A stretch of DNA of 64,000 nt from a virus (taxonomy: Duplodnaviria; Caudoviricetes): positions 170,377 through 234,376 of IMG/VR virus record IMGVR_UViG_3300037067_015585. One strand, 5' to 3'. The notes beneath the pieces are model-generated. The model saw only the letters and a program-made list of their open reading frames with translations, had not been told where the DNA came from and ran no database searches. Every line of letters starts with the position of its first letter. Position 1 is the stretch's first letter. Both the position numbers and the translations under genes were made by a program. Shown piece by piece: positions 28,135 to 64,000 of this stretch.

Positions 28135-28662
28135 ATGAATACACCAAGTCAAAAGCAAATCGAAGAACAAAGTTGGGATGCTTGTCTTGCAGGTGATTAT
28201 GTCACCGTCCAGGATCAGATCTATGCTTTGCGTGCTAAGATGATACGCGACTACGCTGCTGCACACAAGGCGGGAGTAGAGCCAGTAGCACAAGAGTCGG
28301 AGGCATGGGCAATAATGACGTCGTTTTTAGACGGCAAACAAAACCCAGAGATGAAAAAAGCTATCAGTGATGAATCGATGGTTAATATTGATGGATTAAT
28401 ATTGCAAGAAGCCATCCAAAATGTTCTAATAGAACCATTACGAGATGAAATAAAGAGGCTACAGAAAGCATTAGATGTAGCTAATAGATACAAACAAGCA
28501 ATAGAGCTAATAGAAAAAGGACCAGTATCGTCAGTTTCCGCACTCGAATTTGGCGGACATAATATAACAATAAGATTAAATAACATGTTCATGTCAATGG
28601 AGTATAACGGTACCCCGTTGGTTGATTCAATAATATCAGCTTCTAAGTCCAGTATGAGTTAA
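28135..28662 (+). CDS. Hypothetical protein
   Basis: Preceded by both promoter motif classes. Confidence 0.55.
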   Translation: MNTPSQKQIEEQSWDACLAGDYVTVQDQIYALRAKMIRDYAAAHKAGVEPVAQESEAWAIMTSFLDGKQNPEMKKAISDESMVNIDGLILQEAIQNVLIEPLRDEIKRLQKALDVANRYKQAIELIEKGPVSSVSALEFGGHNITIRLNNMFMSMEYNGTPLVDSIISASKSSMS

Positions 28663-28681
28663 GTTCGTTCCCAGGTGATAT

Positions 28682-29164
28682 ATGTATGATTGTAGTGAAT
28701 TCGGTTTATATTCAGGTCAGCCAGTTAATAAGAAGCTTCTCGTTCTAGGTAAATCGGCGGCGAGTGAGTTTACCTACAGCAAACCGTGGGCTTGTATATC
28801 GATTGGCACAGAAGTTGGTGATTGGCCCAAAATCAACAAATGCCAGCTGGTTGATCTTCTACAAGTAGCTTTCTATGATCTCGACAAAATGCCATCAGAG
28901 CAGTTCCTTAATTCTCACGACAAATCCAAAATAGTCTTATTTAGTGAGAATCACGCTCAGCAAATATGGAAATTTGTTGAATCTGTCTGGGATAAAGTCG
29001 ATTTGTTAATGGTGCACTGCCTAGCTGGTGCATGTAGATCTCCTGCCGTCGCTGCGGCCATCGCCAAGATTAAATATGGCGATGATCAGTTCTATTTTGA
29101 CAATTATATGCCAAATATGCTCGTGTTCAGAACTATGTTAGCGTGTGCTACGAAAGGTGAATAA
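28682..29164 (+). CDS. Protein-tyrosine/dual-specificity phosphatase-like
   Basis: VHCLAGACRS (CX5R), PN motif. Confidence 0.85.
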   Translation: MYDCSEFGLYSGQPVNKKLLVLGKSAASEFTYSKPWACISIGTEVGDWPKINKCQLVDLLQVAFYDLDKMPSEQFLNSHDKSKIVLFSENHAQQIWKFVESVWDKVDLLMVHCLAGACRSPAVAAAIAKIKYGDDQFYFDNYMPNMLVFRTMLACATKGE

Positions 29165-31932: not shown

Positions 31933-32006
31933 TGCGGGATGGAGCAGCCTGGTAGCTCATAAGCCTCATAAGCTTAAGATCGCTGGTTCAAATCCAGCTC
32001 CCGCCA
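31933..32006 (+). tRNA. tRNA-Met(CAU), initiator-like
   Basis: Cloverleaf with fMet-type D arm (GGAGCAGCCTGGTAGCTC), 1:72 mismatch, CT-CAT-AA loop, TTCAAAT T loop. Confidence 0.9.
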
Positions 32007-32010
32007 CTTT

Positions 32011-32084
32011 GGGCCCGTAGCTCAGTTGGTTAGAGCAGCAAACTCATAATTTGACGGTCGTTCGTCCAAGTCGAACCGGGCCTA
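32011..32084 (+). tRNA. tRNA(CAU), probably Ile2 (or elongator Met)
   Basis: GGGCCCG/CGGGCCT acceptor stem, CAT anticodon, variant T loop TCCAAGT. Confidence 0.85.
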
Positions 32085-32090
32085 CATATT

Positions 32091-32226
32091 ACATAACAAT
32101 GGAACAAGAGGCACTTCTCGTAGAAAAACGGAATTAAATGGCCGTCTGTGTACCGTGAATGAGCGGGCAAGCATAGGAAGTTGTGGGTTGAAACCCCATC
32201 ATAGAAAACTTGTTCTATTGTTGTGT
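32091..32226 (+). ncRNA. Candidate structured ncRNA
   Basis: 18-bp terminal stem with two G-U pairs (ACATAACAATGGAACAAG/CTTGTTCTATTGTTGTGT) enclosing several hairpins. Confidence 0.55.
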
Positions 32227-32750
32227 TAGTTATGTCAATCGATCTTCTTCAACGATTCGAGTGCATCGTCATCGAGGTTCGTGAGGACTGTGTTGATGTT
32301 GAGATGTATGATTTGACGAATCCATCAAATCCAATCGAGTTTGCATCAATCTATCTATCCAAATTCGATGCCAATGACGTAAAGCTATTGTGTGAAGGTG
32401 CCGTTTTCTACTGGAATATTGGGAACGAGACGAAAGATAGCGGGCAGATAATTCGATATTCAGAATTTGTATTTAAGTAGTCCTTAGTTTCACTAACCCC
32501 ATTGATAGGAAGAAAATGGCAAAAGCAAAAAGAGAAGTTAAGCCCGACCGATGTACACTGCAGAAGTGAAGTCTTTGCAACGGTAGATTCTATCGACGAA
32601 GGATATGTTAATCGTCTCAATACAAAATCTATAAAAATTTTAAAATATAAGATGTGGGCTAAAATCGGAATGCTTGATTTCTTTTCAAGCGCCAGGACTA
32701 GACAAAGCACAAGCCCATCAAGGGGCAAAAATAGAGCCAAGTAGTACTAA

Positions 32751-32823
32751 GCCGGTGTAGCTCATTTGGTAGAGCATCTGATCTGTAATCAGACGGTAGT
32801 GGGTTCAATTCCCTCCACCGGCT
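32751..32823 (+). tRNA. tRNA-Thr(UGU)
   Basis: GCCGGTG/CACCGGC acceptor, TCTGA/TCAGA anticodon stem, loop TC-TGT-AA. Confidence 0.88.
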
Positions 32824-36251: not shown

Positions 36252-36324
36252 GTGTCAGTAGCTCAATGGATCGAGCAATGGACCTCTACTCCATCGGTTG
36301 GGAGTTCGACTCTCCCCTGACACA
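36252..36324 (+). tRNA. tRNA-Arg(UCU)
   Basis: GTGTCAG/CTGACAC acceptor, A20, ATGGA/TCCAT stem, loop CC-TCT-AC, TTCGACT T loop. Confidence 0.85.
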
Positions 36325-37891: not shown

Positions 37892-38473
37892 ATGATCAAA
37901 TCTGTCGAATTCAAAGTCGATTGGCGAACATTCAAGGCTGGCGATCGGTTTGAATTTACCCCTGGTATAAATCTTCTAGTGGGGGATCAGGGAGCCGGAA
38001 AGAGTTCTCTAATAACTCTGTTCAAATGGGCACTAAATGATAATAAGGAATTTGAAAGAATTGCCCATATATCGGTCGAAGGCAAGATACAGTTACGCCT
38101 ATTCGACTTTGAAGCAGATAATCCAAGAACAAGAAGCTATTGTCAGCACGCAGCGGATGTGTATATGAGATTCCAGGCCCACGGCAATTGCGTTCTGGCC
38201 ATACTTGACGTACTTGGCGAGGAAATAGATACGGTCAAAGCGTTTGTACTCGATGAACCAGATATGGCTCTGAGTATCAGATCGATAAATAAATTAGTAG
38301 GTATTTTAAAATCCACAAAGCATCAGGTCATATCATCAGCGCACAATCCACTATTAATCCAGTCGTTCGATAATGTTTTGTCGATAGAGCATAAAAAGTG
38401 GATGAAGTCGAAAGAATTTATTGAAAGTCAGATGACAGATGGCGAAGAAGCGCAAACCGACAGCAAAACCTAA
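37892..38473 (+). CDS. ABC/AAA-type ATPase
   Basis: GDQGAGKS Walker A, VLDEPD Walker B, SAHNP. Confidence 0.85.
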   Translation: MIKSVEFKVDWRTFKAGDRFEFTPGINLLVGDQGAGKSSLITLFKWALNDNKEFERIAHISVEGKIQLRLFDFEADNPRTRSYCQHAADVYMRFQAHGNCVLAILDVLGEEIDTVKAFVLDEPDMALSIRSINKLVGILKSTKHQVISSAHNPLLIQSFDNVLSIEHKKWMKSKEFIESQMTDGEEAQTDSKT

Positions 38474-38755: not shown

Positions 38756-39190
38756 GGTGTGGCCTGGTGAGGTCCGGCTAGGCATGGCGGGGTTTGGTGG
38801 GGTAGGGTACGGTCAGGTCTGGGTGCCAATGGCACATTTACAAATCAAGAGCAATGTGGTGAGGTGAGGTGAGGTATGGTGTGGCGCGGTGCGGTGTGGC
38901 CTGGTGCGGTCGGGCCTGGCGAGGTGCGGTAAGGTTTGGGTGCCAATGGCACATTTACAAATCAATACTAGTGATATGGCTAGGCGAGGCGCGGTCTGGT
39001 AAGGTAAGGTCTGGTGCGGTGCGGTGTGGCGTGGTAAGGTTTGGGTGCCAATGGCACATTTATAAATCAAGAGTGATGGCCGGGCGAGGTGCGGTGTGGT
39101 TTGGTCGGGTCAGGTCTGGTGTCGTGCGGTTTGGTGTGGTAAGGTAAGGTGTGGTAAGGTTTGGGTGCCAATGGCACATTTACAAATCAA
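38756..39190 (+). repeat. GGY-NN array 1: four (GGYNN)13-17 tracts, each ending in a 29-nt palindromic repeat; putative guide-RNA array
   Basis: TGGGTGCCAATGGCACATTTAYAAATCAA at 38820, 38937, 39042 and 39162; strict 5-nt GGY periodicity in the tracts. Confidence 0.9.
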
Positions 39191-39202
39191 TACTAGTGAA
39201 TT

Positions 39203-40081
39203 ATGAGCTTAACAATATCAATAATCGGCAAGAATGAGGAAGATAATCTTAGTCGCTGTATCAAGTCAGTGCTTCCAATTGCTGATTTGATCGTCTACGC
39301 TGATACTGGTAGTACTGATTCGTCAATTGAAATTGCTGGATCACTCGGATGTACTATTCGGAACATCAAATTTGAAGATTTTGCACAAGCACGCAACGAC
39401 GCGAAGGAAGGCATTCCTGATGACTGGATCTTGCAAATCGACGCCGACGAAGTGTTATTGAATGCCGAAAAACTGCTACCATGCCTCGAATCAGATTATT
39501 ATGAGGCATATCTGTCATCGCAAGAACATCTAATGATCGGTGGCAACAAAACATCGATCGCTATGCGATTGTTTAGAAATCGTGAACATTATAAGTATGT
39601 TGGATGCATTCACGAAATGCCAGAGGATATGAATGCAAGTGGTCCTGACAAGGCCATCTCACCATATATGTTCACGAAGGATTGGGGGTTCGCACATTAT
39701 GGATGTGTTGACGAACCGCTGCGGCGAGTGAAAGTATCTGAGCGTAATCTAAAACTATTAATCAAGGATCTGCATGTTAATCCATATAGGTCTTATAATA
39801 AATACTTGATGATACGCGATTACCTCAATATCTATAAATGGAGAACAGAAGCGAACGGATTTAGGTGTAAGTTTGGATCTATCGAGCACAACCTTTTGTG
39901 TGCAGTAATAAGAGACTACGACAAATACAAAAAAGACATATTATCGCGTTATCGTGATCTAGCAAACGAAGTTTTTGAATCAGCCCAATCTGTGCTATCA
40001 CAACAGGATTATCAATATATTGAAACGAATATGTCGCCAATCGAATTGCTATCATTAGGGTTGAGTGATGCCAGCGCATAA
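39203..40081 (+). CDS. GT2 glycosyltransferase
   Basis: IIGKNEE, DTGSTD, DFAQARN, IDADE, IHE, HYG. Confidence 0.9.
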   Translation: MSLTISIIGKNEEDNLSRCIKSVLPIADLIVYADTGSTDSSIEIAGSLGCTIRNIKFEDFAQARNDAKEGIPDDWILQIDADEVLLNAEKLLPCLESDYYEAYLSSQEHLMIGGNKTSIAMRLFRNREHYKYVGCIHEMPEDMNASGPDKAISPYMFTKDWGFAHYGCVDEPLRRVKVSERNLKLLIKDLHVNPYRSYNKYLMIRDYLNIYKWRTEANGFRCKFGSIEHNLLCAVIRDYDKYKKDILSRYRDLANEVFESAQSVLSQQDYQYIETNMSPIELLSLGLSDASA

Positions 40082-60176: not shown

Positions 60177-60557
60177 ATGGAAGAAGAAATATATACCTAT
60201 TTTATATGCGATAGATGTAGATCGTTTTCGGACCACCAAAAGGTTTGGTGTCCGTCTTGTGGCCAGAAACTACGCTACGAGAAAGACAGGAGAAGCGAAC
60301 TAGAAGCAAAGGGGTTTGAAAGCACATACGATCTTGCTTTTTATAAGCGTGAGGGTGGTAGATTTGAGGCGTTTATAAGAACTCCCAAGACATTCATTGG
60401 GGCTATCAACACGGAAGCTGAATGTACTCTACATATCATAGTCCGGGCGTCACGGAAGAGTGAAGCCATAGAAAAGGCCAGTAAATATGGTAGAATAAAC
60501 AACATCCATGCCCTACGCATTGATGATAATGGTAGGGGCGGACCTGAACTAACTTAA
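60177..60557 (+). CDS. Zn-ribbon hypothetical protein
   Basis: CDRC...CPSCG. Confidence 0.55.
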   Translation: MEEEIYTYFICDRCRSFSDHQKVWCPSCGQKLRYEKDRRSELEAKGFESTYDLAFYKREGGRFEAFIRTPKTFIGAINTEAECTLHIIVRASRKSEAIEKASKYGRINNIHALRIDDNGRGGPELT

Positions 60558-61945
60558 TTGTTGTTCGATTCCATCATCGCAACAAACTTCAAGAAATTCT
60601 CGGACCAACCAGAAATTTCAGCTGTCCAGATTCCCTGATAATTGACGCCATGTGATTCAGATGAGACGTCGATAATGTAGTTTCTTTGGCCGTGCGGTCT
60701 CGGCTGTCCTCTTCCAGGTAAATCACAATCTTGTGAATCACTGAAAATAAGCAACCGATCCGGCGATTCAATCTTATCGCGAATATAGTCACACACCTGA
60801 CGTGTAAAAATTCCACCGCCACCCATATTATCATATGCATCCGTGATATGATCGGCGAGCGAGAATCCACGTGTTGCTTCAACTTTTCTTGTGGCGTGCT
60901 TTCGTTGGTGATCGCTACCAGCAGTCACATAAACAGAAACGTGATCGCAGCACTCTGCCGCAAGCACGGCCATTGAAGCCGCCGCATCAATTCGAGTGAA
61001 CTCTGATTTGCTCGACAGATTGCTGTGCATCGATCCAGACACATCGATAACTAGTGTCGTGAATCCGGCAAGTCTCGGCCATGATTTCGCACACCGATAC
61101 ATCAAATCCTCGATTTCACGTGTCCAATCAGGAGCATATTTGCGAGCTTTAAGAAAATCGATCGGTAATAACATATCTGATTTGCACGTGTCGAATGCTT
61201 TCGCCATCGACGAACGTGAAATCTTTACTTCCTGCATATTTCGCAGATTTTTCAAAAATACGTATGCTGGCAGTTTACCTTCATCAATCAATCGCTCCCA
61301 TACTCCACGCTTTTCATCGGTGTTCTTCGCCGCCGACATACCGACTTCCCAAGTATCAGGAGTAGCCAATTCATTGTACAACAGTTTCTTATATAATGAA
61401 TTGCGATCGCCTGCCGGTTTCGCATGTACGAGACGCATAGCATCACGAAGCTTGATGTCTTTATCCATCTGCTTGTATTTAGCAAGCTGATACTCATCAA
61501 ACTTATCGAACGCAGCCGCCAAACCTCTCTTTACGGCTGCTGGCAATGATTTCTTTTTATCATTGTCGGACCAATAAAGAGATATAAATTCAGTTATCTC
61601 ATCTGGACGCTTACAGATCTTGGTCAGCGTCTCAGCGACACCGGGCATGTGATTGCGAGCCATTTCACGAACGATCAACAGCGGAACATGCCGTAGTTTC
61701 TGATCGTATCTGGCCTCAATAGCAATATCGGCAACATTCGGAACCAACGGCACCAAACTCTTGATCTTATTGACGACTTCTTGGCCATCGCAATATGCGT
61801 TTTTCTCCCACAAGAGGCAAGACATAACAAGGCGACGAAGAGTAGCCTCGTCTCCCTGTTTGGCTGCTCTCGGGCCATATCCACCAGCAAGGTGCTTGTC
61901 AGCGTAAACGTGTGATTTCTTAGTCTTTTTGTTTGTCGTCGCCAT
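60554..61945 (-). CDS. Ro60/Rsr TROVE-domain RNA-binding protein
   Basis: SCLLWE, LRHVP, FDEYQLAKY, TPDTWE, KNLRN, vWA DVSGSM, SDSQ, GWSE. Confidence 0.92.
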   Translation of the reverse strand: MATTNKKTKKSHVYADKHLAGGYGPRAAKQGDEATLRRLVMSCLLWEKNAYCDGQEVVNKIKSLVPLVPNVADIAIEARYDQKLRHVPLLIVREMARNHMPGVAETLTKICKRPDEITEFISLYWSDNDKKKSLPAAVKRGLAAAFDKFDEYQLAKYKQMDKDIKLRDAMRLVHAKPAGDRNSLYKKLLYNELATPDTWEVGMSAAKNTDEKRGVWERLIDEGKLPAYVFLKNLRNMQEVKISRSSMAKAFDTCKSDMLLPIDFLKARKYAPDWTREIEDLMYRCAKSWPRLAGFTTLVIDVSGSMHSNLSSKSEFTRIDAAASMAVLAAECCDHVSVYVTAGSDHQRKHATRKVEATRGFSLADHITDAYDNMGGGGIFTRQVCDYIRDKIESPDRLLIFSDSQDCDLPGRGQPRPHGQRNYIIDVSSESHGVNYQGIWTAEISGWSENFLKFVAMMESNNN

Positions 61946-62243
61946 AATCGTCACCCAGCAGTTTCTTATCAAACCAAACTGGCCAATTAGTTTTTAGGAG
62001 ATCCTCTTTGATCTCCTCGGTTACTAAAATGTCTTGAAATTTTACTAGCGGATTAACGTGATAAAATAAATCACGCATCAGAGAACAAACACCAGTTGCT
62101 CTATATCTCCATCCAATTATTTCTTCTGGCATACCCTCTCTAGTCAGTGAACATGCTATACACAGAGCGATCTCTTCAAGGAAGTAATTCCTTAGTTTCT
62201 CACTGTCCGCTAAGAATTCTCTGGATTTCATAATTGCAACCAT
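61920..62243 (-). CDS. Hypothetical protein between the Y RNAs and Ro60
   Basis: ORF overlapping the Ro60 start. Confidence 0.5.
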   Translation of the reverse strand: MVAIMKSREFLADSEKLRNYFLEEIALCIACSLTREGMPEEIIGWRYRATGVCSLMRDLFYHVNPLVKFQDILVTEEIKEDLLKTNWPVWFDKKLLGDDYGDDKQKD

Positions 62244-62252
62244 CTAATATAG

Positions 62253-62357
62253 AGGCGGTTACAGCGGGAAAAGTCTCACACAGTCCTTAATACTGAGTCC
62301 CTTTTTGAGAGGGGCTGTTTCGAAGTATCTGTGCGATGCGCCACACTGTAACCGCCT
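62253..62357 (-). ncRNA. Y-RNA-like RNA lacking the tRNA module
   Basis: Terminal stem AGGCGGTTACAG/CTGTAACCGCCT; shares GTGGCG, TACTTCG and TTTTCCCGC motifs with its neighbours. Confidence 0.65.
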
Positions 62358-62367
62358 TATATTAAAA

Positions 62368-62506
62368 GTGTTGCGGGAAAAAGCGAAACGGGCTATTTTA
62401 AGCGCTCTGCCAACTGAGCTACACCCGAATTGCTCGGATGGTTGGACTCGGACCAACGACCTCTCGCTCCAATTGCGAAGTAACCCATCTCTGCGCCACG
62501 CAACAC
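62368..62506 (-). ncRNA. YrlA-like Y RNA (permuted tRNA mimic), copy 1
   Basis: Terminal stem enclosing a T arm (GTTGG-TCCGAGT-CCAAC), a closed acceptor-like stem and a D arm (TAGCTCAGTTGGCAGAGC). Confidence 0.85.
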
Positions 62507-62572
62507 AGTTTTATAGGGATATGATTCGCTGTAAGTCAAAAGCCTGCAGGTTCACATATCCTTTTATTTTTA

Positions 62573-62715
62573 AAGTTGCTGCGGGAAAAAGCGAAGTAGG
62601 TAACGTTAGCGCTCTGCCAACTGAGCTACACCCGATTGCTCGGATGGCTGGACTCGGACCAGCGACCTCTCGATTAGCATTCGAAGTAACCCACTTCTAC
62701 GCCACGCAGCAACTT
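62573..62715 (-). ncRNA. YrlA-like Y RNA, copy 2
   Basis: Paralog of copy 1 with a different terminal stem; class-B motif about 10 nt upstream. Confidence 0.85.
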
Positions 62716-62742
62716 ATAAAATACATATTGAATTATCCCCAC

Positions 62743-62994
62743 TTAACATACACCGTGGCATTTAGGGCCCGGCATTTCTGCCAAAACTATGCCGTCATCG
62801 TGAGCAAAACCACTATGGAGTTCACTTTTACTTGCACCAACGCGGTCCACGACACTCAACTGATCGCCAGCGGTCATAAGCTCAAGTCGCTCTGGACACG
62901 CTTCCAGGCACCGCTTCAAACGGTAAACCCATAGACGTTCTTCTCGCGTAAGAGGAGGAACTTTTAATTCGGAAGGTTTAATAATTTTAAACAC
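62743..62994 (-). CDS. Hypothetical protein
   Basis: ORF in a minus-strand run. Confidence 0.5.
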   Translation of the reverse strand: MFKIIKPSELKVPPLTREERLWVYRLKRCLEACPERLELMTAGDQLSVVDRVGASKSELHSGFAHDDGIVLAEMPGPKCHGVC

Positions 62995-63006
62995 GATATC
63001 CCCATA

Positions 63007-63522
63007 TTACATAATGATCGGTGGACGTTGTATAACATCTGTCCTTGAACTGTGTTCTGTCGTACGCATCTGCCGATCTAGTTCAGTCATATTCGCGTGC
63101 AACATCTCCATTTGTGCAGCCATGAATTTGCCCTCGCGATCGTTGACCTTCGCCGACTTATCGTTACTGAGGCACATCAATGATTGGAGGTTGGCTTTAT
63201 GTTGGTGCTTTGCACGTTTTATACGCTTCTTCGATACCAGATAGATCTGTTCGTGCTCGGTCATCATCCTAAGACCAACGTCGCGATATGACCAAAGTTG
63301 AATACCACGTTCGTCTTGCATTCTCTGGACAAACCGCTTCATGATATAGCCACCATTTGCAGTATTGTTCTGGTAGGCTAATTCCGTGCGGCTAAATCCG
63401 CTCACACTCTCCAATTCTTCCCACGTCAGAATATCGCCACGGCATTTCGGCACAGCGAATTGCATAAGTCGATCGACTGCTGCTTGTGATGCTGGGTTAA
63501 ATTCAAATGCTCGTCTAATCAT
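63007..63522 (-). CDS. Hypothetical protein directly downstream of GGY-NN array 2 (candidate accessory factor)
   Basis: GAGGA RBS; winged-helix-like pattern GDILTWEELE...GIQLWSYRDVGLRM followed by a helical tail. Confidence 0.6.
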   Translation of the reverse strand: MIRRAFEFNPASQAAVDRLMQFAVPKCRGDILTWEELESVSGFSRTELAYQNNTANGGYIMKRFVQRMQDERGIQLWSYRDVGLRMMTEHEQIYLVSKKRIKRAKHQHKANLQSLMCLSNDKSAKVNDREGKFMAAQMEMLHANMTELDRQMRTTEHSSRTDVIQRPPIIM

Positions 63523-63575
63523 AATGTCCTCTTTGTAATGATGATTGAATTATACCAGATTGTAGCATGAAAACA

Positions 63576-64000
63576 GTGATTTGTAAATGTGCCATTGGCA
63601 CCCAGACCATACCAGACCCAGCCAAACCAGACCTCGCCACACCCGACCTCACCTCACCGGGCCGTACCATGCCTTATTCGTCTTGATTTATAAATGTACC
63701 ATTGGTACCCAAACCCGACCCCACCAAACCCGGCCCAACCACACCCTACCACACCTGACCTGACCGTACCGAGCCACTTCTTGATTTGTAAATGTGCCAT
63801 TGGCACCCAGACCAGACCAAGCCGCGCCACACCTTACCGTACCCGACCCCACCGTGCCATACCGCACCGCACCAGATCTATTGGCTTGTAAATGTGCCAT
63901 TGGCACCCAGACCTCACCCCGCCAGACCCCGCCGCACCATACCTCGCCGCACCTCGCCGCACCTCGCCGCACCACGCCCCATCGCTCTTGATTTATAAAT
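63576..64000 (-). repeat. GGY-NN array 2 (truncated by window end)
   Basis: Reverse complement of the same 29-nt repeat at 63576, 63683, 63781, 63881 and 63988 (partial); RCC-NN periodic tracts on the + strand. Confidence 0.9.

What the first reader, a model, noticed from the sequence alone, without database searches (positions are those of the whole stretch)
63605..63987. Array 2 independently shows the same wobble-skipping code
Minus-strand NN strings: GT GC GA GC GA GC GA AT GC GG CT GG GA = VA[DE]A[DE]A[DE][IM]AGLG[DE]; GC GC AT AC GG CG AC AA GT GC TT CT = AA[IM]TGRT[KN]VA[FL]L; TC AC CA CA GT AG GT TG CG TT GG CG = ST[HQ][HQ]V[SR]V[WC]R[FL]GR; AT AC CC GA GA CG GT GA CT TT TG CT AT = [MI]TP[DE][DE]RV[DE]L[FL][WC]L[IM], which reads like a typical protein N-terminus (MTPEERVEL). 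A target at a start codon would fit transcriptional or translational silencing. Unit spacings of 107, 98, 100 and 107 nt are not multiples of 3, so the array is not one repetitive ORF.
Basis: partly seen in the sequence, partly recalled or inferred. Interest (0 to 1): 0.88.

Follow-up and report, generated by a model that had tools for sequence, protein, structure and literature searches.

The report
Phage VIPR guide-RNA array

Summary
Window 63573-64000 (minus strand) carries four complete units plus the start of a fifth. Each unit has 14-15 pentamers Y-NN-GG followed by a conserved ~30-nt hairpin tail.

Array 1 (38756-39195, plus strand) has the same build. In all there are 120 pentamers, with GG kept in 119 and Y in 118.

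This is the published anatomy of VIPR vrRNAs (bioRxiv 10.64898/2026.04.26.720920 and .720927). The Cas7-like protein Vipr holds each GGY, and the NN pairs read DNA while skipping every third base, mostly the codon wobble, to silence rival mobile elements.

The 234-kb contig breaks inside the array and holds no vipr gene. Three related loci with the same tail have vipr directly upstream of the array. Two of them have a homologue of the window's 171-aa gene (distantly vap1-like) downstream.

One guide gives a candidate target. Eleven consecutive NN pairs match a DNA polymerase gene of an integrated element in a Pirellulaceae MAG, with the skipped bases on wobble positions. A seed hit of that size is expected by chance about once. 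No target was found for the "MTPEERVEL" guide.

This is a new member of a known kind. The scan has met VIPR arrays before in at least 20 other genomes.

The parts
63573..64000 (-). vrRNA array 2: four complete units (guide tract plus 3' tail) and the 3' end of a fifth tail; cut by the contig end
   Evidence: same tail in relatives
63907..63981 (-). guide tract of unit 1 (15 Y-NN-GG pentamers; contains a GC/GA 10-nt internal repeat)
63807..63876 (-). guide tract of unit 2 (14 pentamers)
63709..63778 (-). guide tract of unit 3 (14 pentamers); the only guide with a candidate target (family-A DNA polymerase of an integrated element)
63573..63603 (-). 3' tail of unit 4 (hairpin GTGCC-AAT-GGCAC, then ATTTACAAATC...). 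Equivalent tails lie at 63680-63710, 63778-63808 and 63878-63908. The copy at 63680-63710 carries a compensatory G-C to A-U change.
63559..63587 (-). sigma-70-like promoter match (TTTACA, 17 nt, TG-n-TACAAT) whose -35 lies in the last tail; it could drive the downstream 171-aa gene
   Evidence: consensus match only
63007..63522 (-). 171-aa gene directly downstream of array 2; probable distant vap1-like accessory gene
   Evidence: 40% identical to the gene after the array in G001 and 72% to the one in L158. phrog_5926 (the family of SUSP1 vap1) is the top hit at E 0.011, and at 3.5e-4 for the G001 copy. hhalign against SUSP1 vap1 gives probability 51%, E 1.5e-4.
38756..39195 (+). vrRNA array 1: four units of 13, 17, 14 and 18 pentamers with the same tail, about 24 kb from array 2 and in the opposite orientation
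   Evidence: a matching second array in G001 lies in the same genome neighbourhood

Best explanation
Array 2, and array 1 at 38756-39195, are arrays of VIPR guide RNAs (vrRNAs).

Inferred by homology with the characterised SUSP1 and P. fulva systems: each unit is transcribed in the G-rich sense and released as an RNA of about 100 nt. One Vipr (Cas7-like RAMP) protomer binds per pentamer and holds the GGY bases. The exposed NN dinucleotides pair with double-stranded DNA two bases out of three, skipping one base that usually falls on a codon wobble position. The filament stays bound and represses transcription of a rival phage, satellite or integrated element.

The hairpin tail caps the 3' end of each guide. 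The 171-aa gene downstream is probably the DNA-binding accessory (vap1-like).

The vipr gene itself is not on this contig. It is expected just past the contig end, which breaks inside the array.

Shown here: the anatomy, tail pairing, synteny in relatives, and absence of self-targets. Inferred: expression, processing, Vipr binding and silencing.
For: (1) Anatomy matches the published definition: 9-16 YNNGG repeats with variable NN, then an invariant structured 3' tail. Here there are 13-18 repeats per unit, and GG/Y are kept in 119/120 and 118/120 pentamers.

(2) Tail hairpin: 2 of 5 pairs show compensatory double changes across 19 copies. Only 2 of 500 shuffles reach this. A further A-U/G-U variant is in L158.

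(3) Both arrays are co-oriented with their flanking genes in the G-rich sense, and every tract is followed, not preceded, by a tail at the array ends.

(4) phrog_4652 is the Vipr family. It hits SUSP1 at 28489-29064 with E 2e-98, and that gene is flanked by GGY-NN tracts.

(5) The 99%-complete relative G001 (388 kb) has one such gene. BLASTP against SUSP1 Vipr gives E 1e-10. The GGY-reading residues H17, R138, D177, W178 and R179 are all conserved. That gene lies directly upstream of an array with the same tail, and a 40%-identical homologue of the window's 171-aa gene follows.

(6) The order vipr, array, vap-like gene is also seen in L158, whose vap-like gene is 72% identical to the window's. 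The order vipr then array is seen in L154/L155.

(7) A generic (GGYNN)x10 pattern finds more than 120 IMG/VR contigs. The largest family of proteins flanking those tracts is phrog_4652.

(8) No guide matches its own contig or G001 above shuffled-guide background, as published for VIPR.

(9) Guide u3 matches a family-A DNA polymerase gene over 11 consecutive NN pairs (22/22 bases; 23-24 of 28 overall). The gene is part of a ParB, PolA, excisionase-like, integrase element. All skipped bases fall on wobble positions of the antisense ORF, and two homologous contigs differ in that stretch only at skipped bases.
Against: No vipr gene is present on the 234-kb contig: phrog_4652 gives nothing at E up to 10, and tblastn with the G001 Vipr gives E above 1. 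CheckV rates the contig 64% complete, so this is not decisive.

The single candidate target is not statistically secure. A 20-base gapped seed is expected about 0.5-1 time by chance in each of the metagenome and genome collections. The three flanking dinucleotides match no better than chance. Four other guides have no hit with up to 3 mismatches in the same 7.3-Mb MAG. None of the eight guides converges on the element.

The vap1 link is weak (E 0.011; hhalign probability 51%). No RNA data exist for this phage. No pseudoknot like the one in SUSP1 tails was found, only a hairpin.
Confidence: 0.9

Rival explanations
1. Orphan arrays: this phage has no vipr of its own. The arrays act as decoys or sponges for a competitor's Vipr (an RNA anti-VIPR), or borrow Vipr from a co-infecting relative.
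For: No vipr on 234 kb of sequence. Array 1 sits about 24 kb from any candidate vipr position. RNA anti-CRISPRs that mimic repeats are a precedent (abstract listed).
Against: The contig breaks inside array 2 at exactly the side where G001, L158 and L154 have vipr. G001 also has a remote second array served by a single vipr. The contig is only 64% complete.
Confidence: 0.05
2. A protein-wrapping RNA without guide function. The GGY triplets are binding sites for an oligomeric RNA-binding protein, as TRAP binds eleven (G/U)AG triplets spaced by 2-3 nt. The NN are neutral spacers that drifted.
For: Purifying selection on GGY with free NN would give the same pattern. Unit 1 shows slippage-like GC/GA repeats. 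The 5'-proximal and 3'-proximal dinucleotides are shared between units and between phages. No secure target was found.
Against: The associated protein family is the experimentally characterised Vipr, with its GGY-reading residues conserved. NN entropy is 3.64 of 4 bits, with different strings in every unit. There is one in-phase candidate target.
Confidence: 0.04
3. A CRISPR array, a coding pentamer or collagen-like repeat, or a DNA-level signal such as a packaging site or replication origin.
For: Repeat-spacer layout. The hairpin core is also a DNA palindrome.
Against: The 'spacers' are strictly 5-nt periodic, which captured foreign DNA is not. Unit lengths are not multiples of 3. Compensatory changes fit base pairing. 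No Rfam family matches the array.
Confidence: 0.01

Closest known systems
VIPR systems (Vipr + vrRNA + vap), type II exemplar Escherichia phage SUSP1 (bioRxiv 10.64898/2026.04.26.720920; structures in 10.64898/2026.04.26.720927)
   Same: YNNGG pentamer tracts of 13-18 units with hypervariable NN. A conserved structured 3' tail. Tandem vrRNA units next to a two-gene vipr/vap-like locus in relatives. Phage-borne. No self-targets. The GGY-reading residues are conserved in the relative's Vipr.
   Different: Vipr of this clade is only about 20% identical to SUSP1 Vipr. The tail is a simple 5-bp hairpin plus an A/U-rich stretch, and no pseudoknot was found. There are two arrays about 24 kb apart in opposite orientation, in a jumbo phage from groundwater and landfill samples. 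vipr is not on the contig. The type (I-VII) was not assigned by phylogeny.
Class 1 CRISPR crRNA-Cas7 filaments
   Same: A RAMP protein polymerises along a guide RNA and a thumb breaks pairing periodically. The layout is an array of variable segments capped by a constant handle.
   Different: The period is 5 nt with 3 bases sequestered and 2 pairing, against a 6-nt period with 5 pairing. The variable part is not a captured protospacer. No cas adaptation genes or CRISPR repeats are seen.
TRAP-trp leader RNA of Bacillus (own knowledge, an analogy only)
   Same: Triplets repeated every 5 nt, each read by one subunit of a protein oligomer, with non-conserved 2-nt spacers.
   Different: TRAP is a closed ring, its spacers carry no information, and the proteins are not homologous.

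Membership tests
VIPR (vrRNA) | Tandem YNNGG (GGY/NN) pentamers, about 9-16 per RNA, with GGY conserved and NN hypervariable | tested here: met
   13-18 pentamers per unit. GG is kept in 119/120 and Y in 118/120. NN entropy is 3.64 of 4 bits. Zero comparable runs in shuffles.
VIPR (vrRNA) | Invariant, structured 3' tail after each repeat tract | tested here: met
   About 30 nt of tail with 93% mean column identity over 19 copies. The 5-bp hairpin has 2 compensatory pairs. The pseudoknot reported for the SUSP1 clade was not found.
VIPR (locus) | A vipr gene (minimal RAMP, phrog_4652 family) beside the vrRNAs | tested here: inconclusive
   Absent from the 234-kb contig. But the contig ends inside the array and is 64% complete. 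In G001, L154/L155 and L158 vipr lies directly upstream of arrays with the same tail.
VIPR (locus) | An accessory vap gene next to vipr and the vrRNAs | tested here: inconclusive
   The 171-aa gene at 63007-63522 is syntenic in G001 and L158. Its similarity to SUSP1 vap1 is weak: phrog_5926 at E 0.011 (3.5e-4 for the G001 copy) and hhalign probability 51%.
VIPR (function) | Guides match other mobile elements by the 1-nt-skip rule at 80% or more NN identity, and do not match their own genome | tested here: inconclusive
   No self hit above shuffled background. One candidate for u3 (82-86% NN match, skip on wobble, in an integrated element). It is compatible with chance. The u4 seed and the 11-dinucleotide seeds of u2 and u3 gave nothing, as did the 10-dinucleotide u3 seed in viral contigs. 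u4, u2 and array-1 units 1 and 3 had no hit with up to 3 mismatches in the candidate host MAG.
VIPR (function) | vrRNAs expressed as RNAs of about 100 nt that co-purify with Vipr and repress targets | not testable with these tools
   No RNA run holds the locus. This needs small-RNA sequencing and reporter assays.
CRISPR array | Spacers are captured foreign sequences without internal periodicity | tested here: not met
   Every 'spacer' is a strict 5-nt periodic tract. Presence of cas genes was not tested.

The most novel reading that the evidence does not exclude
This jumbo phage carries vrRNA arrays but no vipr of its own. It uses them as RNA decoys against a competitor's Vipr, or loads them onto the Vipr of a co-infecting relative. 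That would be an RNA-level counter-defence or parasitism layered on VIPR.
Probability: 0.05. Interest if true: 0.7.

Novelty: new member of a known kind. Interest (0 to 1): 0.3.

Why it matters
It adds a well-resolved VIPR example from an uncultivated jumbo phage lineage found in groundwater and landfill samples. The example has two separate arrays, a simple hairpin tail, and a Vipr clade only about 20% identical to the characterised protein.

It also gives a testable lead on function and host. One guide may silence the DNA polymerase of an integrative element in a Pirellulaceae planctomycete. If that holds, it would extend VIPR-mediated conflict between mobile elements to Planctomycetota and suggest a host for the phage.

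It shows that the gapped code can be read from sequence alone. The mechanism itself is already published.

Tried and rejected
**Other identities for the array**
- Rfam, at gathering threshold on the whole window and at E up to 1 on 61900-64000, has no family on the arrays.
- Pfam finds nothing for the 171-aa protein.
- A cyanobacterial host guessed from HIP1-like strings is rejected: GCGATCGC occurs 3 times against 3.6 expected.
- Before finding the literature I considered a TRAP-like wrap, a Rho-loading site and a G-quadruplex. These were dropped once the flanking protein family proved to be Vipr.

**Target searches that found nothing**
- Self and G001 scans are at shuffled background.
- Exact 11-dinucleotide seeds of u4, u3 and u2 in IMG/VR give 0 hits.
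- The u4 10-dinucleotide seed gives 0 hits in JGI metagenomes and 0 in GTDB genomes.
- The u3 10-dinucleotide seed gives 0 hits in IMG/VR.
- Exact seeds miss targets with mismatches, so these blanks are weak.

**Follow-up of the u3 candidate**
- Relatives of the target polymerase in IMG/VR: none.
- Homologues of the polymerase in G000 and G001: none.
- u4, u2 and array-1 units 1 and 3 in the Pirellulaceae MAG with up to 3 mismatches: none.
- The u3 core in 401 Pirellulaceae genomes with up to 2 mismatches gives only the MAG itself plus one hit. That hit lies in an unrelated PEP-CTERM-like ORF, and the reversed-pattern control also hit once, so it is chance.

**Extending the contig**
- The exact-protein look-up of the 171-aa protein found nothing.
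- The contigs of P0002, P0121 and P0126 could not be fetched.
- Laid contigs do not bridge the array.

**Expression**
- No RNA holder is listed for the locus.

**Not done**
- Structure prediction of Vipr or the vap-like protein was not run. Sequence links to the SUSP1 proteins were judged sufficient for Vipr and remain weak for vap.

Full report
**What is there**

The window is the last 64 kb of a 234,376-bp viral contig. Read on the minus strand, positions 63573-64000 hold four complete units and the first 15 bases seen of a fifth.

Each unit has a tract of 14-15 pentamers of the form Y-NN-GG, followed by a conserved tail. The tail starts with the hairpin GTGCC-AAT-GGCAC and continues with an A/U-rich stretch.

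The hairpin cores are 107, 98 and 100 nt apart, and 107 nt to the cut copy.

A second array at 38756-39195 on the plus strand has four units of 13, 17, 14 and 18 pentamers and the same tail. Over both arrays GG is kept in 119 of 120 pentamers and the pyrimidine in 118 of 120. NN has 3.64 of 4 bits of entropy.

Runs of eight or more such pentamers never arise in shuffles of the window or of the array's own composition.

**Which strand, and is the tail structured**

Both arrays are co-oriented with their neighbouring genes in the G-rich sense. At the ends of the arrays each tract is followed by a tail, and the first tract of array 1 is not preceded by one.

Across 19 tail copies from this phage and a relative, two of the five hairpin pairs carry compensatory double changes (G-C to A-U, C-G to U-A). 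Only 2 of 500 shuffles reach that, and slid registers pair poorly. A further variant in L158 keeps pairing through A-U and G-U. I found no support for a pseudoknot.

**Relatives**

The exact repeat occurs in one other IMG/VR record, a 388-kb contig that is 99% complete (G001). It too has two arrays.

A generic pattern of eleven GGYNN units hit more than 120 viral contigs with quite different separators. The largest family of proteins flanking those tracts (63 members by single linkage) is phrog_4652, of unknown function in PHROGs.

**Identification**

The scan's earlier notes pointed to VIPR systems. I read both preprints. They describe:
- Vipr, a minimal Cas7-like RAMP;
- vrRNAs made of 9-16 YNNGG repeats with hypervariable NN and an invariant structured 3' tail;
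- one Vipr protomer per repeat, holding GGY;
- pairing of the NN with double-stranded DNA while skipping one base per step;
- skip bases overwhelmingly on third codon positions;
- targets on either strand;
- transcriptional silencing of rival phages, satellites and prophages.

I checked the link myself. phrog_4652 hits Escherichia phage SUSP1 at 28489-29064 with E 2e-98. That gene is flanked by GGY-NN tracts on its own strand, and its product has H17 and the G-loop D177-W178-R179 at the published numbering.

G001 has one such gene (L001:1487-2167). BLASTP against SUSP1 Vipr gives E 1e-10 at 20% identity. H17, R138, D177, W178 and R179, the residues that read G1, G2 and Y3, are all aligned and conserved.

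**The missing protein**

The window's own contig has no vipr. phrog_4652 finds nothing at E up to 10, and tblastn with the G001 protein gives only E above 1.

But the contig is rated 64% complete and breaks inside array 2. In G001 the order is vipr, array, then a 173-aa gene that is 40% identical to window 63007-63522.

A 2.3-kb metagenome contig (L158) has the C-terminal part of a Vipr, a terminator-like hairpin, two units with the same family of tail, and then a gene 72% identical to the window's 171-aa gene. Two further short contigs (L154, L155) show vipr followed by the array.

So vipr is expected on the minus strand just past position 64000. This is inferred, not shown.

The 171-aa protein has phrog_5926, the family of SUSP1 vap1 (E 1e-75 for vap1 itself), as its top PHROG hit at E 0.011, and the G001 copy at 3.5e-4. 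A two-sequence profile aligns to vap1 over about 95 residues at hhalign probability 51%. I call it probably vap1-like. That would place the system nearest to type II, but I did not run the phylogeny that defines types.

**Targets**

[quoted passage not shown] That agrees with the published absence of self-targets.

Exact gapped seeds from u4 (the 'MTPEERVEL' guide), u3 and u2 found nothing in IMG/VR. The u4 seed found nothing in JGI metagenomes or in GTDB genomes.

A ten-dinucleotide seed of u3 hit two homologous metagenome contigs. The details of that hit are:
- Eleven consecutive dinucleotides (22 of 22 bases) match, and 23-24 of 28 bases match overall.
- The site is antisense to a conserved ORF.
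- Every skipped base falls on a third codon position.
- The two contigs differ in that stretch only at skipped bases.

The ORF is a family-A DNA polymerase in a ParB, PolA, excisionase-like HTH, integrase block. The block abuts housekeeping genes at the edge of a contig of a Pirellulaceae MAG, GCA_034408855.1.

This is the kind of target the preprint reports, but it is not secure. A 20-base seed is expected roughly 0.5-1 time by chance in collections of this size. The flanking dinucleotides match no better than chance. No other guide converges on the element or the MAG. A second hit in 401 Pirellulaceae genomes is chance. I put it at about even odds.

**Habitat**

Contigs from a groundwater metagenome and a landfill metagenome hold the locus. 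The repeat words there have 10-25 times the depth of the flanking gene, and many loose ends carry other pentamer strings, some identical to G001 units. The community therefore holds many more units than this contig shows.

**Verdict**

The finding is real.

The system is already described (two 2026 preprints), and the scan has flagged it in at least 20 other genomes. This is therefore a new member of a known kind, and of modest interest.

The open points are the unseen vipr gene, the weak vap1 link and the unproven target.

Noticed in passing
window 60554-61972 (-), 62377-62499 (-), 62585-62687 (-): A TROVE (Ro60-like) plus vWA protein gene (Pfam E 8e-17) is preceded by two full-length but sub-threshold matches to the Y-RNA-like family YrlA (33 and 31 bits against a gathering score of 69; E 7e-5 and 3e-4). 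The same stretch gave blastn hits to tRNA-Thr-like regions of Xanthomonas and Mycobacterium phages. It looks like a phage Ro / Y-RNA module next to the VIPR locus.
   Followed up: partly
window 37892-38473 (+) and 39203-40081 (+): Array 1 lies between a small AAA ATPase (AAA_21/AAA_23, AbiEii/SMC-N-like) and a family-2 glycosyltransferase. Neither is known as a VIPR partner.
   Followed up: no
L128:8950-10000 and L138:17860-18230 (G001 arrays): Several G001 units change pentamer register by one base inside a tract, which may correspond to the 'staggered' overlapping vrRNAs of the preprint. A degenerate, guide-less tail sits between vipr and the first unit, as it also does in L154.
   Followed up: no
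L154:1106-1170 and L158:342-390: A strong G+C-rich hairpin directly follows the vipr stop codon and precedes the array. This suggests that vipr and the vrRNAs are separate transcription units.
   Followed up: no
loci L005-L124 (IMG/VR): More than 120 viral contigs carry long GGYNN tracts with many different separators. Besides phrog_4652, a second family (phrog_15946, 16 members, about 160 aa) recurs next to the tracts and may be another vap type.
   Followed up: partly
window 63277-63598: In the groundwater run, two contig versions of the 171-aa gene differ at 30 of 322 positions, mostly spaced by multiples of three. This points to co-existing strains under purifying selection.
   Followed up: no
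window arrays 1 and 2: The first base of the NN pairs is G in 44% of the 120 pentamers (GT, GC, GA and GG lead). That would fit guides mostly copying the sense strand of coding targets, but it may simply reflect the G-richness of the RNA.
   Followed up: no
window 31933-32823 and 36252-36324 (+): Four tRNA genes lie in the variable region between the two arrays (Rfam, 59-65 bits).
   Followed up: no
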